The translations under genes were made by a program, and so were the position numbers. From Geosiphon pyriformis uo1 (taxonomy: Eukaryota > Fungi > Glomeromycota), in NCBI GenBank assembly GCA_016748015.1, contig JAAOMT010000166.1:1-9172 (forward strand): a stretch of DNA of 9,172 nucleotides, given 5' to 3'. Position 1 is the stretch's first letter, and each line of letters opens with the position of its first letter. This document shows positions 1-9,172 of the stretch, in pieces. The notes below the pieces were generated by a model. It did not search any database. It had not been told where the DNA came from and worked only from the letters and a program-made list of their open reading frames with translations.

Positions 1-731
1 GGGTCCGGTAGAAAGGGTGGTTGTGGTTCAAACTGACTTGGGTTAAAAGCCCTTTGGATACCACTTACTCTCATACTCGAGGCCGCCATGTTTGTGATTG
101 GGGCAAAGGTTACTTGTATACCAGCCCAGTACTTATTTTCCCCATCCTATTCGCTGTTGGATGCGATCCTTAGCCTCCCTTGTACCCGCCCCTCCAATGA
201 CCCACATACACAAAGCAATACCAGGGGTAGTTACTGATTTTACGCATACCTTTGATTGGTTGTTGGGGCCTAGGGCTGGTAAACCCCTCGCAGAGGACCC
301 GTTGATTTTGAGTAGTAGGGACCTAGTATACTTTCTAAAGGACCCACACCAACAACAGTGGTTACCATACTGCATGCCCATGGGGGAGGATTGCTAGTAC
401 TTGAACTGGGACTTTGAGGGATCCCATGGCACCTTGACTCTTGACTTGGTGATCTAAGAGGGTATACTCTATTATGGGATGGATGGATAGTAGGACCATT
501 GGATACTAGTACTGTGTATTTGGTTTGCAGCAGGATACAGGGCGAGTAGTACTTTTGGGGAGCTGGAGAGGTCAGTTGCCATACCCCATACAAATACAAC
601 CTCGGATATTATGGGATTACTTTATATGAGTACCCTTTTGGCCCCCACCTAAATAACTTTCCACTACCCTCATACACACCCCCCAAATCCGTACCCATAC
701 TTACTACTCCTTATTGGTTGGATAGGGCCCC
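1..731 (+). repeat. Terminal direct repeat, left copy (731 bp)
   Basis: Starts GGGTCCGGTAGAAAGG and ends GATAGGGCCCC; the same sequence recurs at 8442-9172. The three ORFs inside it reappear with identical translations at an offset of exactly 8441. Confidence 0.97.
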
Positions 732-781
732 ACCCCCCCCCCACCCCCCCCCACCACCCCCCCCACAACCCCCCAACCACC
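728..781. repeat. Compound poly-C tract (C4-A-C10-A-C9-ACCA-C8-ACAA-C6); G-quadruplex potential on the - strand
   Basis: Read directly; four or more G-runs with short loops on the - strand. Confidence 0.85.
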
Positions 782-784
782 GAT

Positions 785-799
785 TTTGTACCTATCCCC
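785..799 (+). repeat. Dispersed 15-bp direct repeat, copy 1 (TTTGTACCTATCCCC)
   Basis: Exact second copy at 1747-1761, with partial similarity continuing about 10 bp downstream. Confidence 0.75.
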
Positions 800-1746
800 T
801 CATGACTACTTGAATTTACCCTTTGAGGCCCATCCTTACTCTTTTTATGGTAGCATAAGAGCATTGGAGTAATAACTTCCTCCTCTTATCTAACTGCTAA
901 GCATACATATAACCAGGCCAGGTATTACCGACTTGATAGTTACTGTATTTATTGAGCAGCATACTGGTTGTTATGAGAAATGGTATTGATAGATGGCTAC
1001 CAATTAGGCGTAGGTCTTGGTATTCGTCCAGTCAAATAAGTACAACTGTAAGGGTAGTCCCATGGTTCCCACACTAATGATCGGTACCATACTCTTTGCC
1101 AATGAGGGACTTGATGGATAATACCTTATTGGATCCTGTACTCATAACTATGACCAGACTAGATATTGAGTGCTATTGAATAATGCCCGTTTGGTGATGG
1201 ATACCCTATTGGTTGTGGGAGATGGGGAGGTTGGGTGTTGGTAGGACTTCCCTAGACTTGGTAGGGTTCCCTTCTCATGATTGGGTATCCAATAGGATCC
1301 ATAAAAAGCAAACCATTACCATACCATACCCCTTAAGTTGGATCCTGAGGTGGATTTGTTACTTTAGTTACTTTCTGGACTTTATCCTTTGTGGGGAGAG
1401 CTATTTGGAGTTGGTTTTGGGCCAGGAGCCCGTCTACTACAAGGACTGCTTATGAGTACCATACCATTGATCCTTGGTAGGGAGCGCATGGGTAATGAGT
1501 CTTTGGGCTTCAGGTAAAATCCAGATTGAGATTGGTGATAAGCCCTGATTGGTAGTACTCTAGTGTAAGACTTGGGTATTGGGTATGGTAAGTACTAGGG
1601 TCCTTTTTGGGGTATTTGTATAAGGGTCATGGGGTAGGTAAGTAGATCGGAGTAGTGATGATCCCTGTTACTGTTGACGGTTGTATTGGGATCCTGAGTA
1701 CTAAGGTATTGGATTTGGTATGGTTTTGTGTAGTAGACTCGGATAC

Positions 1747-1761
1747 TTTGTACCTATCCCC
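1747..1761 (+). repeat. Dispersed 15-bp direct repeat, copy 2 (TTTGTACCTATCCCC)
   Basis: Exact match to 785-799. Confidence 0.75.
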
Positions 1762-2206
1762 ATCACTATTGGTACAGAGGGGGAGGATTCGATATTGAGT
1801 TTATGGGATGGAAGTCCTGGTCATGGAGAATAGGAAGTCAGATACGGATTGGAGTACCAGTAAGCATTACCTAAGTTTGTAACAAGGTTTGTAGGTTTTG
1901 GATACCCATTGATACTCCTTTACTTGGGTACCACAAATAGAGCTCCCCAGATTGATCCCCCTAGTATTACACTACCACCATGCAGTTACTTACTTTCTAC
2001 CAATCACCCAAAGCAACACGGATCTCTCTATCCACCTTATATTTAGATTAGACCCCCCAGGACTGACTATCTACAGTTGATCTAGCCAACACAAGTATCA
2101 ATCTCCTCAATAGTACTCCCTTACTATCGATACACCCTTTGTTCTGCTTAATATATGGTATAACCTCCCAATACTACCCAGCCTGTCCACCCATGATCAC
2201 AAAAGC

Positions 2207-2216
2207 TATATAAAAG
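2207..2216 (+). promoter_or_regulatory. TATA-box-like motif TATATAAAAG
   Basis: Matches the eukaryotic TATAWAWR consensus and is preceded by CAAAAGC, as is the second motif at 2772. No credible downstream ORF. Confidence 0.2.
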
Positions 2217-2610
2217 TCTAAGCTACCAAGGTCTATTGACAATACTCTATAGGTACCGAAGCAGATTGGAGCCCCCCCCCCTAGAGATTACGGTAGGCTT
2301 ATAGAGATGGCGTTGAAAAGCTTGTAGAGCCCATTTGTATGCATACCTTTGATACCCAGGCTTTCTAGAGTACTAATGGCTACAGGATGGACGACCCTTT
2401 TGGATCCTGGGGGGACTCTGGCTCTCATAGGGACTGATCTACTTTGGCTACCCTCCCGTCCCGAAATCAATCTGGTGCCTGAAGTCCCATCCTGTAGTGG
2501 ATAAGGGGGACCCAAAGCCAGATACCCTACTCGGAGACTGACTCTAATACTGGAGTTGGTAAGTTTGATTGGGGCCTCAGACAGCCTTTTTGGAAGTACT
2601 TGTTATACAC

Positions 2611-2735
2611 CCCTTGCGGAGGCAGGCATTGGCCCTGCCAGAGTGGGCGCCCCCCCCCCACCCCCCCCCCCCCCCCCCCCAGCCAAGGACTGGCGAAGCC
2701 CCCTCGCAGGCAAAGCGCTTTGGCCGGAGGCCCCC
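2611..2735. promoter_or_regulatory. GC-rich multi-hairpin island around a C10-A-C20 tract; candidate replication origin or control region
   Basis: Stem GGCAGG/CCTGCC (2621-2639); C10-A-C20 (2650-2680); GGC-GAA-GCC (2692-2700); perfect palindrome CAAAGCGCTTTG (2711-2722); GGCC-GGA-GGCC (2722-2732). CpG and GpC are retained here, unlike most of the unit. The function is inferred. Confidence 0.45.
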
Positions 2736-2771
2736 ACCAAAGCTCCAATACCCATCTTTCAAAAGCCCCCC

Positions 2772-2779
2772 TATATAAG
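2772..2779 (+). promoter_or_regulatory. TATA-box-like motif TATATAAG just downstream of the GC-rich island
   Basis: Consensus match and position only. Confidence 0.2.
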
Positions 2780-3660
2780 GTACTCTAAAGACCTCACAAG
2801 GATCACCAATCATTTAAGACGCTTTGTAGACTTGCGCAGGGTACCCACCCCGAACCCCCTGGCTAATATGACAGTCTAATAGGATACTTGGATAGTAGAT
2901 TGGGGAATACTATAGCATATGATCGGATCCCCTCTAGTAATGTAAAGAGCTTCTTGGCGGACCCTTCTGGGTATTGGACGGGTCTTTTGTATCCTGGCTG
3001 GACCTATATTACCCCATTATACTTGGGGGTGGGGGGACCCTGTTGTGGTTGGGGGCCTTTCTGAGGTATTGGTGGGTTAAGTGGTAATAGGGGGGTTAAG
3101 GGTTATTTTAGTACTGGTTTAGACGGGCGAGTTTTGACCCAGTTTGATTGGTGGTATATGGTAGGTTTAGCTTGATAGGGATAGGGTTGGATTTGTACTG
3201 GGTTTGGCAGGGGGGATCAAATACACCAGTTGTGGCCTCTACTGATCCTTTAGGGTACTTATTGGAGGGACCAGTAGTTTGATTTTTGCACAGTCTGTTG
3301 ACCTTGCAGGTTGGACCCGTTGGGGCTTACCAAGATACCCCACATCTAGCCTGGCGCGCCTCTCATGTACCTATTACTACCCACCCATACAACCCACTAC
3401 TACCCACAACCCCCCATACCCATATCCCCCCCCCTTACTTGTAGCGACGTACCTGCGGCGCCTGCACCGCTTGGCGACATAGAGTTTGTGGTACCTTTGT
3501 ATAGGAACCTTATGGATAGAGAGGAGGACTTGGGAGTTTGGGTATTACAGGTGCTTATCCCCGGACTGTTGTACATGGACCTCCCATATATACTATATCC
3601 TCATATATAGATGGAGTATAAGGATTTGGACTTCTCGCACTTGCTATTGCATACCCATCA

Positions 3661-3680
3661 CCCCCCCCCACCCCCCCCAC
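3661..3680. repeat. Poly-C tract C9-A-C8
   Basis: Read directly. Confidence 0.85.
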
Positions 3681-4899
3681 TCGCCGTATCTAAGTACTAC
3701 TACAGAGGGATTGGGATCCTGATAAATGGAGGGGGGATCTCATGATTGGTACCGTAATACGCTAACAGTCCTCTTAAAGCTTAATAAAGCTATACGCTTC
3801 TTTAGTACAGGAATCTATCCTTACTTAAAGGCCCCTTGTACCTATTGTATTAGATAAAGTACTCCATGAGGGCGCCGCGATTGGATTTGCTTAAATGGGA
3901 GTATGAGTAATATACCATATAGAGAGTTACTGATTTGACTACTAAGTTTTAGGTAAAGAGACCAAGGCCTAAAGTAATACCAAGTCATGGCTCAGGCACC
4001 ATAACCCAACCAATACACCAATGAGTAACCATACGTGGACCCTTACATACAATGGATCCCCATCTGCCCTGTCCCGGCCCCAATAATACCATATGTAAAC
4101 ATCTCCATGTGCCTATGGACTAAACCTTTGGTATTACTTTTACAGTCCCATACCCAAGTACCCAACAACTGTTATCCCCTTACCTCCAAAAGGGGTTGTA
4201 CTGAAAGCACACACAAAGTACTGACTTTAACTCTTCTGCCCCAACAGCCCACAACCCCTGGGACCAACCATAGTATCCCATGTACCAATAAGGCTTTACC
4301 AGCTTTACTACAAATCCATCAAAGGGGACCCATTACTTACCCTCATGGGTACCCGACCCATTACAACTACCACAACCAATTCATTGCCCTACTTACTATC
4401 CTCTTTGACAGCTATATGACTCTATGACTATAGGACTTGATAGGATTGCACACAACCCTTGATATGATCCCATCGCCCCCCCCAGTGCGAACTGCGTAGG
4501 GGATTGCTATAAGAGCTCTCTATCCACCAAACCAACATAGGGACTTCTAACGACAGGATACAAACAGTACTCAAATCCTACCCTATTGGGCTATTGGGAA
4601 CTCTCAGTAATACACATCCTCAGTAGGGAAGTCTCTATAACTAGATAGGGTTTATCGTTACCCCCCCAGGATCCCGATTCTTCAGTATTCGGGTGGGCAT
4701 CTATATACCCCCCACCAACCTCAGGTATACAAGCCTCCATCTTGTACTCTTTACCCATTGATAGGTATGGAGAGGGATCCTTTAAATTACCTACCGATAC
4801 AAATGGTTGGCCAAAACAGGTTTGTTTGGTAGTGGATATTCTTGCCCCTTATTGTATTACTACCTAAACCAATAGACCATATGAATCAAAGCCTTGTGT

Positions 4900-4917
4900 T
4901 GTACTGTACACAGTACA
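4900..4917. repeat. Inverted repeat TGTACTGT-AC-ACAGTACA
   Basis: Perfect 8-bp arms with a 2-nt spacer. Confidence 0.75.
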
Positions 4918-6086
4918 CCTACAAATACCCCATTACACTATACTTACCCTACTTCTTAGAGGTAACAGGGGGATCTCACTGCTGATTTTTGTATCCCTGG
5001 TGGTAGCGAGTCCTCCTGTTACTACTTGTACTAGAATCCCGACAATTGGTGTGGGTACTATTAGGTGTTATTCTACCATGGGATATAGGATCGATACTCA
5101 GGGTATCCAAACACATGGGATATTTGGACTATAGACAGTATCAATACCCATTTCGCGAACTTCTAAGGTTTGGTATCCCCTTACTTTTGTTTGGTGTTTG
5201 AGGGGGTTTGTGGTGAATACTAGAGGTATCCTTTTGTACCCCTGCCACAATGGGCATTATCATCCCAATATAGGAGGATCCCATTTTTGTCTACTAGTGG
5301 TGATGGGGATTTTACGTACCATTAGTCTTATTTTGTAGGGTTTTTGTGTATGGTAAGAGGGTTACTGTGGATACTTGACATGGTTTGTAGCCTTACTTGA
5401 TGGATGGGGATCCCACCTAATCTAGCCTACAAAGCAGACGACGGTCCATAGCTACCCAACCAAATGTTATCTAAGGACTCAGCTTACCATTTGTAGGTAT
5501 AGTCCCCTTGTCCTTGCAGAGCTCTTAAGATTCGATTGGCTTTATTGGGCTTTATGGAGCTTGGGTGGGGGGAGGTTGGGTGGAGCCCCTAAGATCCCAT
5601 TAGAGCTTTATGACCCTAGAAAGCTTTACAATAAAGACAGTTACTTAGAGCTCCAAATACCTCTTATAAAACAGGTATCCTATGGAGGCCCCTGACTAGG
5701 ACTGCCAGGATGGGGATAGATAAGGAGCCATACCCCTCCTACCCCCCCCCTATCCAAATACAACATGAGTACTACAAAGTAGCTATATGGACTCCCTGGG
5801 GGGACTTACCTACATCCCTATACATGGATACCATAGGTACAGAGCACCAAGGGTAGTTTGTGATGGGACGTCCATGACATGGGTAGCATAATAAGGGTAC
5901 TGGTGGCTGGACTGTCCGGGGCCACGGGGCTTCCCATAATTGGGTACTCTTCTGATCATCAACTCTACTCAGCAACCTCATTAGAGTACTAGTACTAATC
6001 ATGGTCATTGGTACTGGGTCCTCCATTACTACCCACCAGTATAAGAGTCAGGTATAGGGTCTAACATGGGACTACATCCTGGAGAA

Positions 6087-6100
6087 CCTGAGTACTCAGG
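6087..6100. repeat. Perfect 14-bp palindrome CCTGAGTACTCAGG
   Basis: Read directly; a 13/14 copy (CCTGAGTACTAAGG) lies at 1693-1706. Confidence 0.8.
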
Positions 6101-6134
6101 GTATGGAGACGATATTGGGTTGTAGACCTGGTGT

Positions 6135-6161
6135 CCCCCCCCCCACCCCACCCCCCCACCC
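6135..6161. repeat. Compound poly-C tract C10-A-C4-A-C7-A-C3; G-quadruplex potential on the - strand
   Basis: Four G-runs separated by single T on the - strand. Confidence 0.85.
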
Positions 6162-6891
6162 GTCAAGTATAAGGAGTATCTTATAAGCTTGATGTAGGGT
6201 ACATATGTTCTTGGGACCAACTTAGTAAGTAGCTTTACAATTGGGGATATAGGATGGGGTAGTTGGTACTCAGTTTGTATAGTATTGATTACAGCCTTGA
6301 TTACTTGGTTGGGGTGATTGGTATACACGGTTTGTTGTAAGCAGAGAGCCCCCTGAGTCCCCAGGCCCATAAGATAGTTACTGCGAAGGGCCTTGGACAT
6401 GGGATATGGATCCAGATGTTGTTTTGTTGTTAAGGATGGTTTGAATTGTAGATTTGTGGTTGGATAGGTGGTTTAATGGGTGGGAATAAAAGCTTTATTT
6501 ATTGATGGGAGGGGATCCCTCGCAAAGGATTTTGGCACATTGGGCTGTACGTTAGGTGGATCGCCTAAAATGGGATGGTATATTGGTCAGAAGTTTGAGT
6601 ACCGACGTGGACTGTTTGGGGATTGGGCATGGGTAGGATACAAAATGGCTATTTTTAAGCTCCTAATGGATACCAGTTACTTTGTGGTTTGTTGGTGATT
6701 GGTAAGGGGATTTGGGATGGTCTGGTTTTAAGGTGGTTTATGGATGGAAGGCTTGAATTGGTAACTCCTGTGTTGTTTGTATAGGGAGTACTTTGGAGTT
6801 GGCTATACAATCTTTACCCCCCCCCCACCACCCTTCTTTTGTTGGTTTGTGGTATTTGGTTGGATGGCAAGTACTTTTTGGTATACTTGGG

Positions 6892-6910
6892 CCCCCACCC
6901 CACCCCACCC
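6892..6910. repeat. (CCCCA)n tract C5-A-C4-A-C4-A-C3; G-quadruplex potential on the - strand
   Basis: The - strand reads GGGTGGGGTGGGGTGGGGG, a canonical G4 pattern. It sits inside an otherwise G/T-rich block of the + strand. Confidence 0.8.
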
Positions 6911-7865
6911 ATATATGGATCCCTAGTAAGTAGCCCTGAGTTGAGTTTGTAGACCACTACTTGTACCCTTTGTGGAGGCTTAGACAATCCCTGTAGTGCG
7001 TAGTAGAAGGCTCACATCCCATCCCAGTTATTTATGAGTGATTGGGGTTGGGTTTGATTTTTGCCACTATTAGGGTGGATCCATGTATCTTAAAGGTTCC
7101 AAATCCTAATCAGAGTGGGTAATGGTTGTGTAGTTTGAGTTGTTTTTACCCCCTAATCCCCCCCTTTACAGTCCTCGTACCCCAAAGGTTTGTCTGACCC
7201 AACCCCCCAATGGTTGTAGACCTGTGGCGATGGGGGGTAGGTTAGGTATACCCGGGGTTTGACACGGGAATCTACTGCGTACACTTGATGGGTTTTGGTA
7301 TTTTGGAGCCTTTGTTTTGAGGGACGCCCCCCCCCCCGTTATTACAAGGATTGGACGTGGGGTTAAACAGATCCATATGACTTACTTGGTGGGGGGACTC
7401 TTGATTTGGGACTATTTGTGTTGGTAAAAGAGTACTTGAGTTGACATTGATTACCCATATGGTACCTGGTATACCAACCAAAATGAATCCTTGGTACTTT
7501 TTAGTAGTAGTTGTGGGTATTTGGGGGTTCAGACCACAACCATGGTATGTATTTGTGTGTGTGGGATTGGTTGGGTTGTAAAGGGATTAGATTGACATTT
7601 CTTGACCAACTAGTAATCCCTACTCACAGGACTTGTACTGGTGGTACAGGTGTTGTGACCCAAATCATGTTTGGTCCCTGGTGGGGTATAAGGGGTTGGT
7701 GGGGAAAAGGGGTCATGGTTGGGTTGGACAAGTTTGGTTTTGTGGGAAGGTTGGATGGTGGGGAGTTGGTAATGGTTTTAGATCAGGGGTTGGGGAGTAA
7801 GTATTTTGAGGTGATGGGGAATCCTGGTTTGGTGGAGTTGGTAGTAAGTGGTAATGGAGTTAGAA

Positions 7866-7889
7866 TGGTGGGTATTGGTGGGTATTGGT
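7866..7889 (+). repeat. Short tandem repeat (TGGTGGGTAT) x2.4
   Basis: Read directly. Confidence 0.7.
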
Positions 7890-8441
7890 TATTGGGTCAT
7901 GGATACTATTGGTTGGGTAAGGGGTTGTAATCAAGCAATAAATCCTATAGCAGGGGCAAATAATATAGCTAGGGTGTTGATGGGAATCGTTGGGTTCTTT
8001 GTATTGGGTTATATGGTCCGGATTGCTTTACTTAGGAGTATCTCTACCTGGGTCCTAATATTGTATATACCAACACCATAATATAGTATGGAGTACAACT
8101 GTTGGCTACACCAATGGGGGAATTGTATGTAGTAGACATGATAGTTGATGGTATGTTTATCCCACTCAGGGAGCCTTGTATGGGTCATATTGGGCGTTGG
8201 TATTGATCACGGGTGGTTTTGTCATGAGGGTTGATTGGGATTTGGTTGGATTGGTCATACAGACTCTATGAGGGCCTATAGATGGGTGGTGGTTGGAGTA
8301 CTAACCACTAGAGGTCCCACTATTGTTATAATAGGGCCAGATGGATGGATCCCATATGGAGTGGAGAGCTTTGATGTAAAACTGACTACAACTACCACTA
8401 CCCAAGTTGACTTCCTGCTCTCAGGTGTGTTAACCCGGGAG

Positions 8442-9172
8442 GGGTCCGGTAGAAAGGGTGGTTGTGGTTCAAACTGACTTGGGTTAAAAGCCCTTTGGAT
8501 ACCACTTACTCTCATACTCGAGGCCGCCATGTTTGTGATTGGGGCAAAGGTTACTTGTATACCAGCCCAGTACTTATTTTCCCCATCCTATTCGCTGTTG
8601 GATGCGATCCTTAGCCTCCCTTGTACCCGCCCCTCCAATGACCCACATACACAAAGCAATACCAGGGGTAGTTACTGATTTTACGCATACCTTTGATTGG
8701 TTGTTGGGGCCTAGGGCTGGTAAACCCCTCGCAGAGGACCCGTTGATTTTGAGTAGTAGGGACCTAGTATACTTTCTAAAGGACCCACACCAACAACAGT
8801 GGTTACCATACTGCATGCCCATGGGGGAGGATTGCTAGTACTTGAACTGGGACTTTGAGGGATCCCATGGCACCTTGACTCTTGACTTGGTGATCTAAGA
8901 GGGTATACTCTATTATGGGATGGATGGATAGTAGGACCATTGGATACTAGTACTGTGTATTTGGTTTGCAGCAGGATACAGGGCGAGTAGTACTTTTGGG
9001 GAGCTGGAGAGGTCAGTTGCCATACCCCATACAAATACAACCTCGGATATTATGGGATTACTTTATATGAGTACCCTTTTGGCCCCCACCTAAATAACTT
9101 TCCACTACCCTCATACACACCCCCCAAATCCGTACCCATACTTACTACTCCTTATTGGTTGGATAGGGCCCC
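8442..9172 (+). repeat. Terminal direct repeat, right copy (731 bp)
   Basis: Appears identical to 1-731. It stops exactly where the left copy enters the long C-tract at 728-781, a typical assembly break point. Confidence 0.97.

What the first reader, a model, noticed from the sequence alone, without database searches (positions are those of the whole stretch)
1..8441. An 8.4-kb circular or concatemeric DNA with no apparent protein-coding capacity
Seen: a 731-bp terminal redundancy defines an 8,441-bp unit whose ORFs are all 139 aa or shorter and look composition-driven (Gly/Trp/Val-rich in G/T blocks, Pro/Thr/His-rich in C/A blocks). Known: plasmids and viruses of this size (papillomaviruses, inoviruses, CRESS viruses) are gene-dense. 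Largely non-coding circles do occur as diplonemid mitochondrial chromosomes with short gene modules, kinetoplastid and bodonid guide-RNA circles, 'empty' dinoflagellate plastid minicircles and viral satellites. Inference: this is a replicon maintained in trans, possibly one member of a family of circles sharing a constant region, with any payload being a small RNA or a gene fragment that needs editing or trans-splicing.
Basis: partly seen in the sequence, partly recalled or inferred. Interest (0 to 1): 0.8.

Follow-up and report, generated by a model that had tools for sequence, protein, structure and literature searches.

The report
Gene-less circle, likely fungal mitochondrial
This 8.4-kb DNA closes on itself in the assembly, has no detectable gene and shares sequence blocks with sister DNAs of similar read depth; it is likely a gene-less piece of a mitochondrial genome split into small circles in what is likely a mycorrhizal-type fungus, a layout known from some plants.

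Summary
There is an exact 731-bp end overlap and an 8,441-bp unit. The longest ORFs are within shuffle range under four codes, and no protein, tRNA or Rfam hit was found. Contigs of the one run holding it (X1, possibly its source) read through 8441/1 at depth ~94-103. They also show relatives: a 7,229-nt contig (depth 98) sharing a GC/poly-C block, and what I read as two versions of a shared region, 4172-5774. The circle closes through that shared 1.6-kb region, so a free monomer is not proven. A contig ~90% like arbuscular-mycorrhizal mitochondrial rnl (E. coli 23S: 78%) has depth 92 in X1. Earlier scan notes place other pieces of this assembly in a mycorrhizal-type fungus. Best reading (0.42): a gene-less circle of a multipartite fungal mitochondrial genome, copied in trans. 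Rivals: an assembly loop in a larger mitochondrial molecule (0.18), nuclear repeat DNA (0.18), or a protist organellar circle with an edited or trans-spliced payload (0.15). The diplonemid class-wide constant region and the kinetoplastid CSB-3 were tested and not met. Look-ups in the scan's findings returned no look-alike on other DNA.

The parts
1..8441 (.). Unit of the circular-mapping contig; no gene found
8442..9172 (+). Exact repeat of 1-731 (assembly overlap)
4172..5774 (.). Shared region R: depth 151-230 against ~94-103 on either side. A second version in other contigs (depth 130 and 124) keeps collinear blocks at about 4172-4231, 5013-5033, 5242-5274, 5638-5660 and 5719-5774. Candidate origin and recombination region (inferred)
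   Evidence: tables 4, 5, 8; skew trough 4750-6250
2613..2820 (.). GC-rich block with a C10-A-C20 tract and short stem-loops. 2613-2754 is shared with a 7,229-nt sister contig of depth 97.6 (4 other letters, 21 gaps); extension to 2820 is inferred from contig ends. It does not fold better than shuffles
733..774 (+). Poly-C/A tract, copy 1 of the C8-A-CCC motif (G-tract on the minus strand). The adjoining bases up to 810 are shared with another contig
3661..3678 (+). C9-A-C8 tract (motif copy 3), also met in other contigs
6135..6161 (+). Poly-C/A tract (motif copy 4), at the minimum of the detrended G-C skew (6166)
5775..8441 (.). Unique arm, G/T-rich half; continues through 8441/1 to 2754 in one X1 contig of depth 102.5
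2791..4201 (.). Unique arm between the two shared blocks, depth 93.9

Best explanation
This is an 8,441-bp circular-mapping DNA with no detectable gene that shares blocks with sister DNAs of similar depth, and it is likely a gene-less circle of a multipartite, recombining mitochondrial genome in what is likely a mycorrhizal-type fungus. Shown: the unit, the lack of coding signal, the shared blocks, and the depth match with an rnl-like contig. Inferred: it encodes nothing for its own upkeep and is copied by the host's nucleus-encoded mitochondrial polymerase and primase/RNA polymerase. Also inferred: the shared 1.6-kb region (4172-5774) carries the origin and is the site where it recombines with sister molecules, so that monomers, concatemers and larger joined forms interconvert. 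The G-tracts, all on one strand, would serve as priming or pausing sites, or are a by-product of one-way replication. It most likely persists as a selfish or neutral 'empty chromosome', without a guide-RNA or gene-module payload.
For: (1) Depth parity in X1. The unique arms have depth 102.5 and 93.9 and a sister contig 97.6. The only long match to arbuscular-mycorrhizal mitochondrial rnl among the 8 of 11 X1 pieces shown is a 546-nt contig of depth 91.7 with 24 other letters and 3 gaps over L069 729-966, about 90%. The same stretch is 78% to E. coli 23S and 79% and 77% to two non-fungal mitochondrial loci, so that contig is likely fungal mitochondrial. (2) Family structure. A second version of region R keeps five collinear blocks, and the summed depth at 5741 is 292, about three molecules' worth. 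The split between versions (151-169 vs 124-130) is not a whole-number ratio, as expected of separately replicating or recombining molecules. (3) Composition leans mitochondrial. CpG is 0.25, CC/GG 1.72 and TpA 1.27, against 0.22, 1.6 and 1.18 in intergenic DNA of the Rhizophagus-like locus L069. L069 ranked first of 59 loci by tetranucleotide correlation (0.65). (4) The skew trough spans 4750-6250 and overlaps R. All 12 clusters of C7+ lie on one strand (p=0.0005). (5) Precedent: two equally abundant mitochondrial circles in Rhizophagus sp. DAOM 213198 (PMC4316621), and gene-less circles in Silene and Thonningia (PMC4647634, PMC10476698). (6) Unchecked AI notes read five other pieces of this assembly as fungal, mostly mycorrhizal-type; a lead only.
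Against: No sequence similarity links the unit to any mitochondrial DNA: 2,664 ORFs and the DNA of 96 mitochondrial-type loci score no better on the window than on shuffles. The depth link rests on one 546-nt contig in a run that may be the source of the window. Contig depth is a rough measure, and nuclear depth in X1 is unknown, so nuclear DNA could also sit near 100. The composition match is loose. Dinucleotide distance to the nearest loci is 159-240 against 35-75 between thirds of the unit itself, L069 intergenic ranks sixth of 146, and no fungal nuclear DNA was among the comparators. GpC (0.50), AG/CT and the GGATCC and AGTACT excess differ from both arbuscular-mycorrhizal loci held. The C8-A-CCC motif occurs in 0 of 97 loci. 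Hairpins, typical of arbuscular-mycorrhizal mtDNA (small inverted repeats, PMC3787672), are not enriched (14 vs 21+-5). Closure through R is not shown by any contig.
Confidence: 0.42

Rival explanations
1. Same mitochondrial compartment, but no free circle. The unique 6.8-kb arm lies between two direct copies of the 1.6-kb repeat R in a large, mostly non-coding mitochondrial chromosome, and the assembler collapsed the copies into a loop.
For: The loop closes through R, where depth is 1.5-2.3 times that of the arms and the contig graph branches. No listed contig spans R with both flanks. The 8441/1 junction lies inside unique DNA and so does not test circularity.
Against: The assembly did join both ends of R to the same arm. 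The depth of the window's version of R (151-169) is below the ~190-200 that two fixed copies would give.
Confidence: 0.18
2. Nuclear DNA of the fungus: a non-coding element bounded by long direct repeats, a young tandem array of 8.4-kb units, or a nuclear extrachromosomal circle derived from one.
For: CpG is depleted (0.25), and unchecked notes describe CpG decay and many retroelements in this assembly. Depths of 100 and 150 would fit two arms and three repeats at a single-copy depth of 50. Nuclear depth is unknown.
Against: No transposon domain was found in any frame. TpG/CpA is not raised (1.04) as CpG deamination would predict, and RIP-type indices are unremarkable (1.20, 0.98). No variant letters among copies of the arms were listed at 5% or more. 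G+C-rich, TpA-rich, one-strand poly-C DNA is not what decayed retroelements usually look like (recalled).
Confidence: 0.18
3. One reading: an organellar circle of a co-sequenced protist (a diplonemid 'unclassified' chromosome or a bodonid guide-RNA circle) whose payload is a short gene module or small RNA needing trans-splicing or editing.
For: The size fits diplonemid chromosomes (~4-10 kb), and unclassified ones share only 0.1-2 kb with others (PMC5658414). The skew minimum near a shared region resembles Diplonema (PMC3035467). Short edited modules can escape HMM searches (PMC3035467). X1 is a mixed sample with several bacterial-like rRNAs.
Against: Only 15 X1 records lie on the window at 80% or more, with depth at most ~230 in a single shared contig. 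Dozens of chromosomes sharing a constant region would pile up far higher. CSB-3 matches are at chance (3 vs 2.9), cassette-spaced inverted repeats are at chance (4 vs 2.8+-1.6), and no module was found.
Confidence: 0.15
4. An autonomous virus or plasmid with an unrecognised genetic code, splicing or frameshifting.
For: Circular map of plasmid or virus size. Frames of 100 aa or more are modestly more common than in shuffles.
Against: Longest frames are at shuffle level under four stop-codon sets and there is no codon periodicity. No Pfam hit was found with all stops read through. There were no PHROG, Pfam or representative-protein hits and no blastn match in 50,697 phage and 72,556 plasmid records.
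Confidence: 0.04

Closest known systems
'Empty' mitochondrial chromosomes of Silene noctiflora and Thonningia sanguinea Chr13; Rhopalocnemis phalloides minicircles (PMC4647634, PMC10476698; passages seen)
   Same: Circular-mapping, gene-less members of a multichromosomal mitogenome. Thonningia circles are 8.7-19.2 kb. Rhopalocnemis circles are 4-8 kb and share an 896-bp conserved region through which they could recombine.
   Different: Those are flowering plants. This DNA is unlike the plant-type mitochondrial loci fetched here (tetranucleotide correlation mostly 0.04-0.35), and its mitochondrial location is inferred, not shown.
Two-chromosome mtDNA of Rhizophagus sp. DAOM 213198 (PMC4316621; abstract, introduction and passages seen)
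   Same: An arbuscular mycorrhizal fungus with more than one mitochondrial circle, at equal abundance.
   Different: Both circles there (62 and 29 kb) carry genes, and fragmentation is tied to dpo insertions. Here there is no gene, no dpo remnant and no excess of small inverted repeats.
Spizellomyces punctatus small mitochondrial circles (recalled; PMC3105423 only cites the species among multipartite genomes)
   Same: A fungal mtDNA with small extra circles, one of them recalled as gene-less.
   Different: Recalled as about 1 kb and rich in double hairpins. This one is 8.4 kb, hairpin-poor and has several relatives.
Diplonemid mitochondrial chromosomes (PMC3035467, PMC5658414; passages seen)
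   Same: 4-10-kb mostly non-coding circles with shared regions and a skew minimum in the shared part.
   Different: There ~95% of each class member is shared with dozens of others and a unique cassette holds a gene module. Here ~80% is unique, few relatives share the rest, and no module was found.

Membership tests
Gene-less chromosome of a multichromosomal mitogenome | No identifiable gene, tRNA or rRNA | tested here: met
Gene-less chromosome of a multichromosomal mitogenome | Maps as an independent circle | tested here: inconclusive
   8441/1 is continuous in one contig, but closure runs through shared region R, which no listed contig spans
Gene-less chromosome of a multichromosomal mitogenome | Depth like that of gene-bearing mtDNA and unlike nuclear DNA | tested here: inconclusive
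   94-103 vs 91.7 for one rnl-like contig; nuclear depth not measurable here
Gene-less chromosome of a multichromosomal mitogenome | Shares repeats with gene-bearing mitochondrial chromosomes | tested here: inconclusive
   Shares blocks with several contigs of depth 98-130, but their sequence and gene content could not be read
Gene-less chromosome of a multichromosomal mitogenome | Located in mitochondria | not testable with these tools
   needs fractionation or FISH
Diplonemid class chromosome | Constant region of ~95% shared by many chromosomes | tested here: not met
   About 6.8 of 8.4 kb lies in contigs of depth 85-103; 15 records laid in all
Diplonemid class chromosome | Unique cassette with a gene module | tested here: inconclusive
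   No hit above shuffles, but short divergent modules can be missed (PMC3035467)
Kinetoplastid/bodonid minicircle | Conserved sequence block 3 (12-mer, recalled) | tested here: not met
   No exact match; 3 matches with 2 mismatches vs 2.93 expected
Kinetoplastid/bodonid minicircle | Guide-RNA cassettes between inverted repeats; U-tailed small RNAs | tested here: inconclusive
   Inverted repeats 60-160 nt apart at chance; RNA not testable
Autonomous plasmid or DNA virus | Encodes a replication or capsid protein | tested here: not met
LTR-retrotransposon derivative | Two long terminal direct repeats in chromosomal flanks with target-site duplication | not testable with these tools
   No whole assembly held; the window is the entire contig

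The most novel reading that the evidence does not exclude
A mycorrhizal-type fungus keeps its mitochondrial genome as a family of 7-8-kb circles, some entirely gene-less. The circles share a recombining 1.6-kb control region and one-strand G-tracts that act as origins: a fungal counterpart of the minicircular plant mitogenomes.
Probability: 0.3. Interest if true: 0.7.

Novelty: new variant of a known kind. Interest (0 to 1): 0.45.

Why it matters
Gene-less mitochondrial chromosomes are an open puzzle known mainly from a few flowering plants. Described arbuscular-mycorrhizal mitogenomes in the papers I read are single circles of ~60-88 kb or, once, two gene-bearing circles. Ten full-text searches returned no report of gene-less mitochondrial circles in these fungi; that library omits most subscription journals. 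If real, the family would give a natural test of which sequences let DNA persist in fungal mitochondria: the blocks kept between otherwise unrelated circles are the candidate origin. It would also show how such DNA is inherited in a coenocytic fungus. If it is an assembly loop or nuclear repeat, interest is low.

Tried and rejected
No whole assembly is held for the window, so sister contigs could not be read. No RNA holder was listed for the unit, and runs X2 and X3 of the same sample laid nothing on it; neither says anything about expression or absence. On locus L069, X1 contigs covered the rnl 3' part and one short piece near the locus start, with no cover over cox2, atp8, atp9 or the tRNAs at 80% likeness; a part without cover proves nothing. 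Exact searches for two shared-block motifs found nothing in metagenome, viral or prokaryote contigs. The window has no match beyond chance in G001, which holds a Gigasporaceae-like mitochondrial contig (best E 0.39). tRNA scan: 0 genes. Rfam: best is RAGATH-13 at 22.6 bits against a gathering score of 80, rejected. The GC block does not fold better than shuffles (z 0.09 and -0.24). The yeast-type mitochondrial promoter nonamer (recalled) is near chance (8 vs 5.2). Sigma-70 promoters and terminators fall below shuffle counts. A CRESS-type nonanucleotide (recalled) occurs once at 1962 but not in a listed hairpin, and there is no Rep; rejected. Only one ORF (189 aa, code 4) was searched against the 1.84-billion-protein library. 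Pfam and PHROGs were run on 30 and 23 selected ORFs of the 50 (code 11, 60 aa or more) and 213 (code 4, 30 aa or more) listed, plus Pfam on all six full frames. Word searches of earlier findings for similar circles gave no match. PMC3590771 and PMC8303319 (passages) added nothing specific. No supplementary files were read; repeat sequences in the supplements of PMC3787672 could bear on the composition comparison.
Full report
Observation. The window is one contig whose first and last 731 bases are identical, giving an 8,441-bp unit of 46% G+C. The longest start-to-stop ORF is 139 aa and the longest stop-to-stop frame 147 aa. Against 200 shuffles that keep dinucleotides in 300-bp blocks, the longest frames under codes 11, 4, 6 and 15 are ordinary, and 3-base periodicity does not exceed shuffles. 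Frames of 100 aa or more are somewhat commoner than in shuffles (7 vs 3.2; 16 vs 9.5). Pfam finds nothing at E up to 1 in all six frames with stops read as X. 30 selected ORFs give a best Pfam E of 0.095 and 23 give a best PHROG E of 0.056. The 189-aa code-4 frame has no relative among 1.84 billion proteins. There is no tRNA, no credible Rfam match, and no blastn match of bases 1-8000 in plasmid or phage collections. The unit is non-coding as far as these tools can tell.

Anatomy. The sequence is far from random. CpG is 0.25 of expectation, GpC 0.50, CC/GG 1.72 and TpA 1.27. GGATCC occurs 18 times and AGTACT 23 times, against about 3 each in shuffles (largest 7 and 9 in 200). G/T-rich and C/A-rich blocks alternate. 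All 17 runs of seven or more C, in 12 clusters, lie on the + strand, and no such G run does (p=0.0005 by cluster). A C8-A-CCC motif occurs four times against 0.06 expected. The minus strand therefore carries quadruplex-capable G-tracts. These recall the G-tract priming sites of mammalian (CSB II) and yeast (ori) mitochondria; the comparison is recalled, not tested. Perfect hairpins are not enriched. The detrended G-C skew has a broad trough from about 4750 to 6250.

Topology and relatives. One public run, X1, holds the unit and may be its source; it is not independent support. Fifteen X1 contigs lie on the window, and 8 of 25 pieces are shown. One contig of 5,428 nt and depth 102.5 runs from 5768 through 8441/1 to 2754; another covers 2791-4201 at 93.9. 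Between them lies a region of higher depth: 4172-4231 at 229.5, 4202-5271 at 151.3 and 5245-5774 at 168.7. Other contigs (depth 129.6 and 123.7) match it only in short collinear blocks (to 4231, 5013-5033, 5242-5274, 5638-5660, from 5719). The summed depth at 5741 is 292. I infer that about three molecules of ~95 pass through this region R in two diverged versions, in non-integer proportion. A 7,229-nt contig of depth 97.6 ends in a copy of the GC/poly-C block 2613-2754. Further contigs leave the window at 810, 1679, 3678, 4172 and 6816, and two of their five loose ends show the same kind of palindromic hexamers. An important limit follows: 8441/1 lies in unique DNA, and the loop really closes through the 1.6-kb R, which no listed contig spans. 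A free monomer is therefore not shown.

Where it lives. Unchecked scan notes read five other pieces of this assembly as fungal, four of them as mycorrhizal-type. To test a mitochondrial home I fetched cox2 loci with a primer printed in PMC3630166 (96 loci). L069 and L013 are arbuscular-mycorrhizal-type mtDNA by their Cox2, rnl and tRNA content and by carrying other primer sites of that paper (my reading). Laying X1 on L069 gave, among 8 of 11 pieces shown, one 546-nt contig of depth 91.7 spanning rnl 729-966 with 24 other letters and 3 gaps, about 90%. The other pieces are shorter, 81-90% alike, several with bacterial-type loose ends, at depth 98-508. For scale, that stretch is 98.7% to L013, 79% and 77% to two non-fungal mitochondrial loci and 78% to E. 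coli 23S. The contig is thus likely the rnl of a fungus related to, but distinct from, the L069 lineage, and its depth matches the unit and its sister. This is a single contig, depth is a rough measure, a nuclear copy of rnl is possible, and nuclear depth is unknown. Composition leans the same way, weakly. L069 ranks first of 59 loci of 2.5 kb or more by tetranucleotides (0.65), and its intergenic DNA shares low CpG, high CC/GG and high TpA. But by dinucleotide distance it is sixth of 146 (212, against 35-75 within the unit), and no fungal nuclear comparator was available. No sequence similarity to any fetched mitochondrial locus exceeds shuffles, nor to G001, which holds a Gigasporaceae-like mitochondrial contig.

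Mechanism. Shown: a non-coding, circular-mapping unit sharing blocks with contigs of similar depth. Inferred: it lies in mitochondria and depends wholly on host enzymes. Also inferred: R, the part kept between otherwise unrelated molecules and overlapping the skew trough, carries the origin and mediates recombination, so monomers, concatemers and joined forms interconvert. The one-strand G-tracts would prime or pause replication, or reflect one-way replication. On this reading no RNA or gene-fragment payload is required; the molecule persists because it carries cis-signals, like plant 'empty chromosomes'. I give this 0.42. A collapsed loop of a larger mitochondrial chromosome gets 0.18, nuclear repeat DNA or a nuclear circle 0.18, a protist organellar circle with a cryptic payload 0.15, and a cryptic virus or plasmid 0.04.

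Comparison with known systems. It works most like the gene-less circles of Silene noctiflora and Thonningia, and the 4-8-kb Rhopalocnemis circles that share an 896-bp region (PMC4647634, PMC10476698; passages). In these fungi the nearest case is the two-circle mtDNA of Rhizophagus sp. DAOM 213198, where both circles bear genes and are equally abundant (PMC4316621; abstract, introduction and passages). Other described mitogenomes of the group are single circles with dpo remnants and small inverted repeats (PMC3630166, PMC3787672; passages). Small circles of Spizellomyces are recalled only; PMC3105423 (passages) merely cites the species. Diplonemid class chromosomes share ~95% of their length with dozens of others (PMC3035467, PMC5658414; passages); that test is not met, although 'unclassified' diplonemid chromosomes share less and cannot be excluded by it. 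The kinetoplastid CSB-3 (recalled) is at chance and cassette-like inverted repeats are at chance.

Verdict. A real, non-coding, strongly patterned DNA with relatives, best read as a gene-less member of a multipartite fungal mitogenome. Ten literature searches found no such report for mycorrhizal fungi, and the scan's own findings hold no look-alike. Location and free circularity remain inferred. Novelty: new variant of a known kind. Interest 0.45; 0.7 if the minicircular mitogenome is confirmed (probability 0.3).

Noticed in passing
window 1-8441: GGATCC (18) and AGTACT (23) are six- to sevenfold over block shuffles and about tenfold over base composition, scattered without regular spacing. 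This is unexplained; it may be a mutational habit or a protein-binding word.
   Followed up: partly
window 2692-2700: A GCGAAGC mini-hairpin (recalled as an extra-stable DNA loop) sits in the shared GC block just after the longest poly-C tract. Related CCTCGCA words recur near 286, 2701 and 6517 in otherwise CpG-poor DNA.
   Followed up: partly
L098 (LXRJ01000116.1) and other small contigs of G001: A Candidatus Glomeribacter gigasporarum assembly in the prokaryote collection contains fungal-type mitochondrial contigs (cox2 at 76% to L069, rnl and intron pieces), apparently host contamination.
   Followed up: partly
L099, L100: Short contigs in two bacterial genomes (Trujillonella endophytica, Brenneria bubanii) encode Cox2 at 60-61% to the fungal protein, far above the other bacterial hits (49% or less); possibly eukaryotic mitochondrial contamination.
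   Followed up: no
L069 6380-7906: Inside this fungal mitochondrial contig lie AT-rich ORFs, one with a DTGA aspartic-protease-like motif, which look like a captured nuclear retroelement fragment.
   Followed up: no
run X2 on L069 717-1074: rRNA-matching contigs reach depth ~38,000, so this run, guessed to be DNA, may be RNA. It holds a 439-nt contig 92% like the fungal rnl.
   Followed up: no
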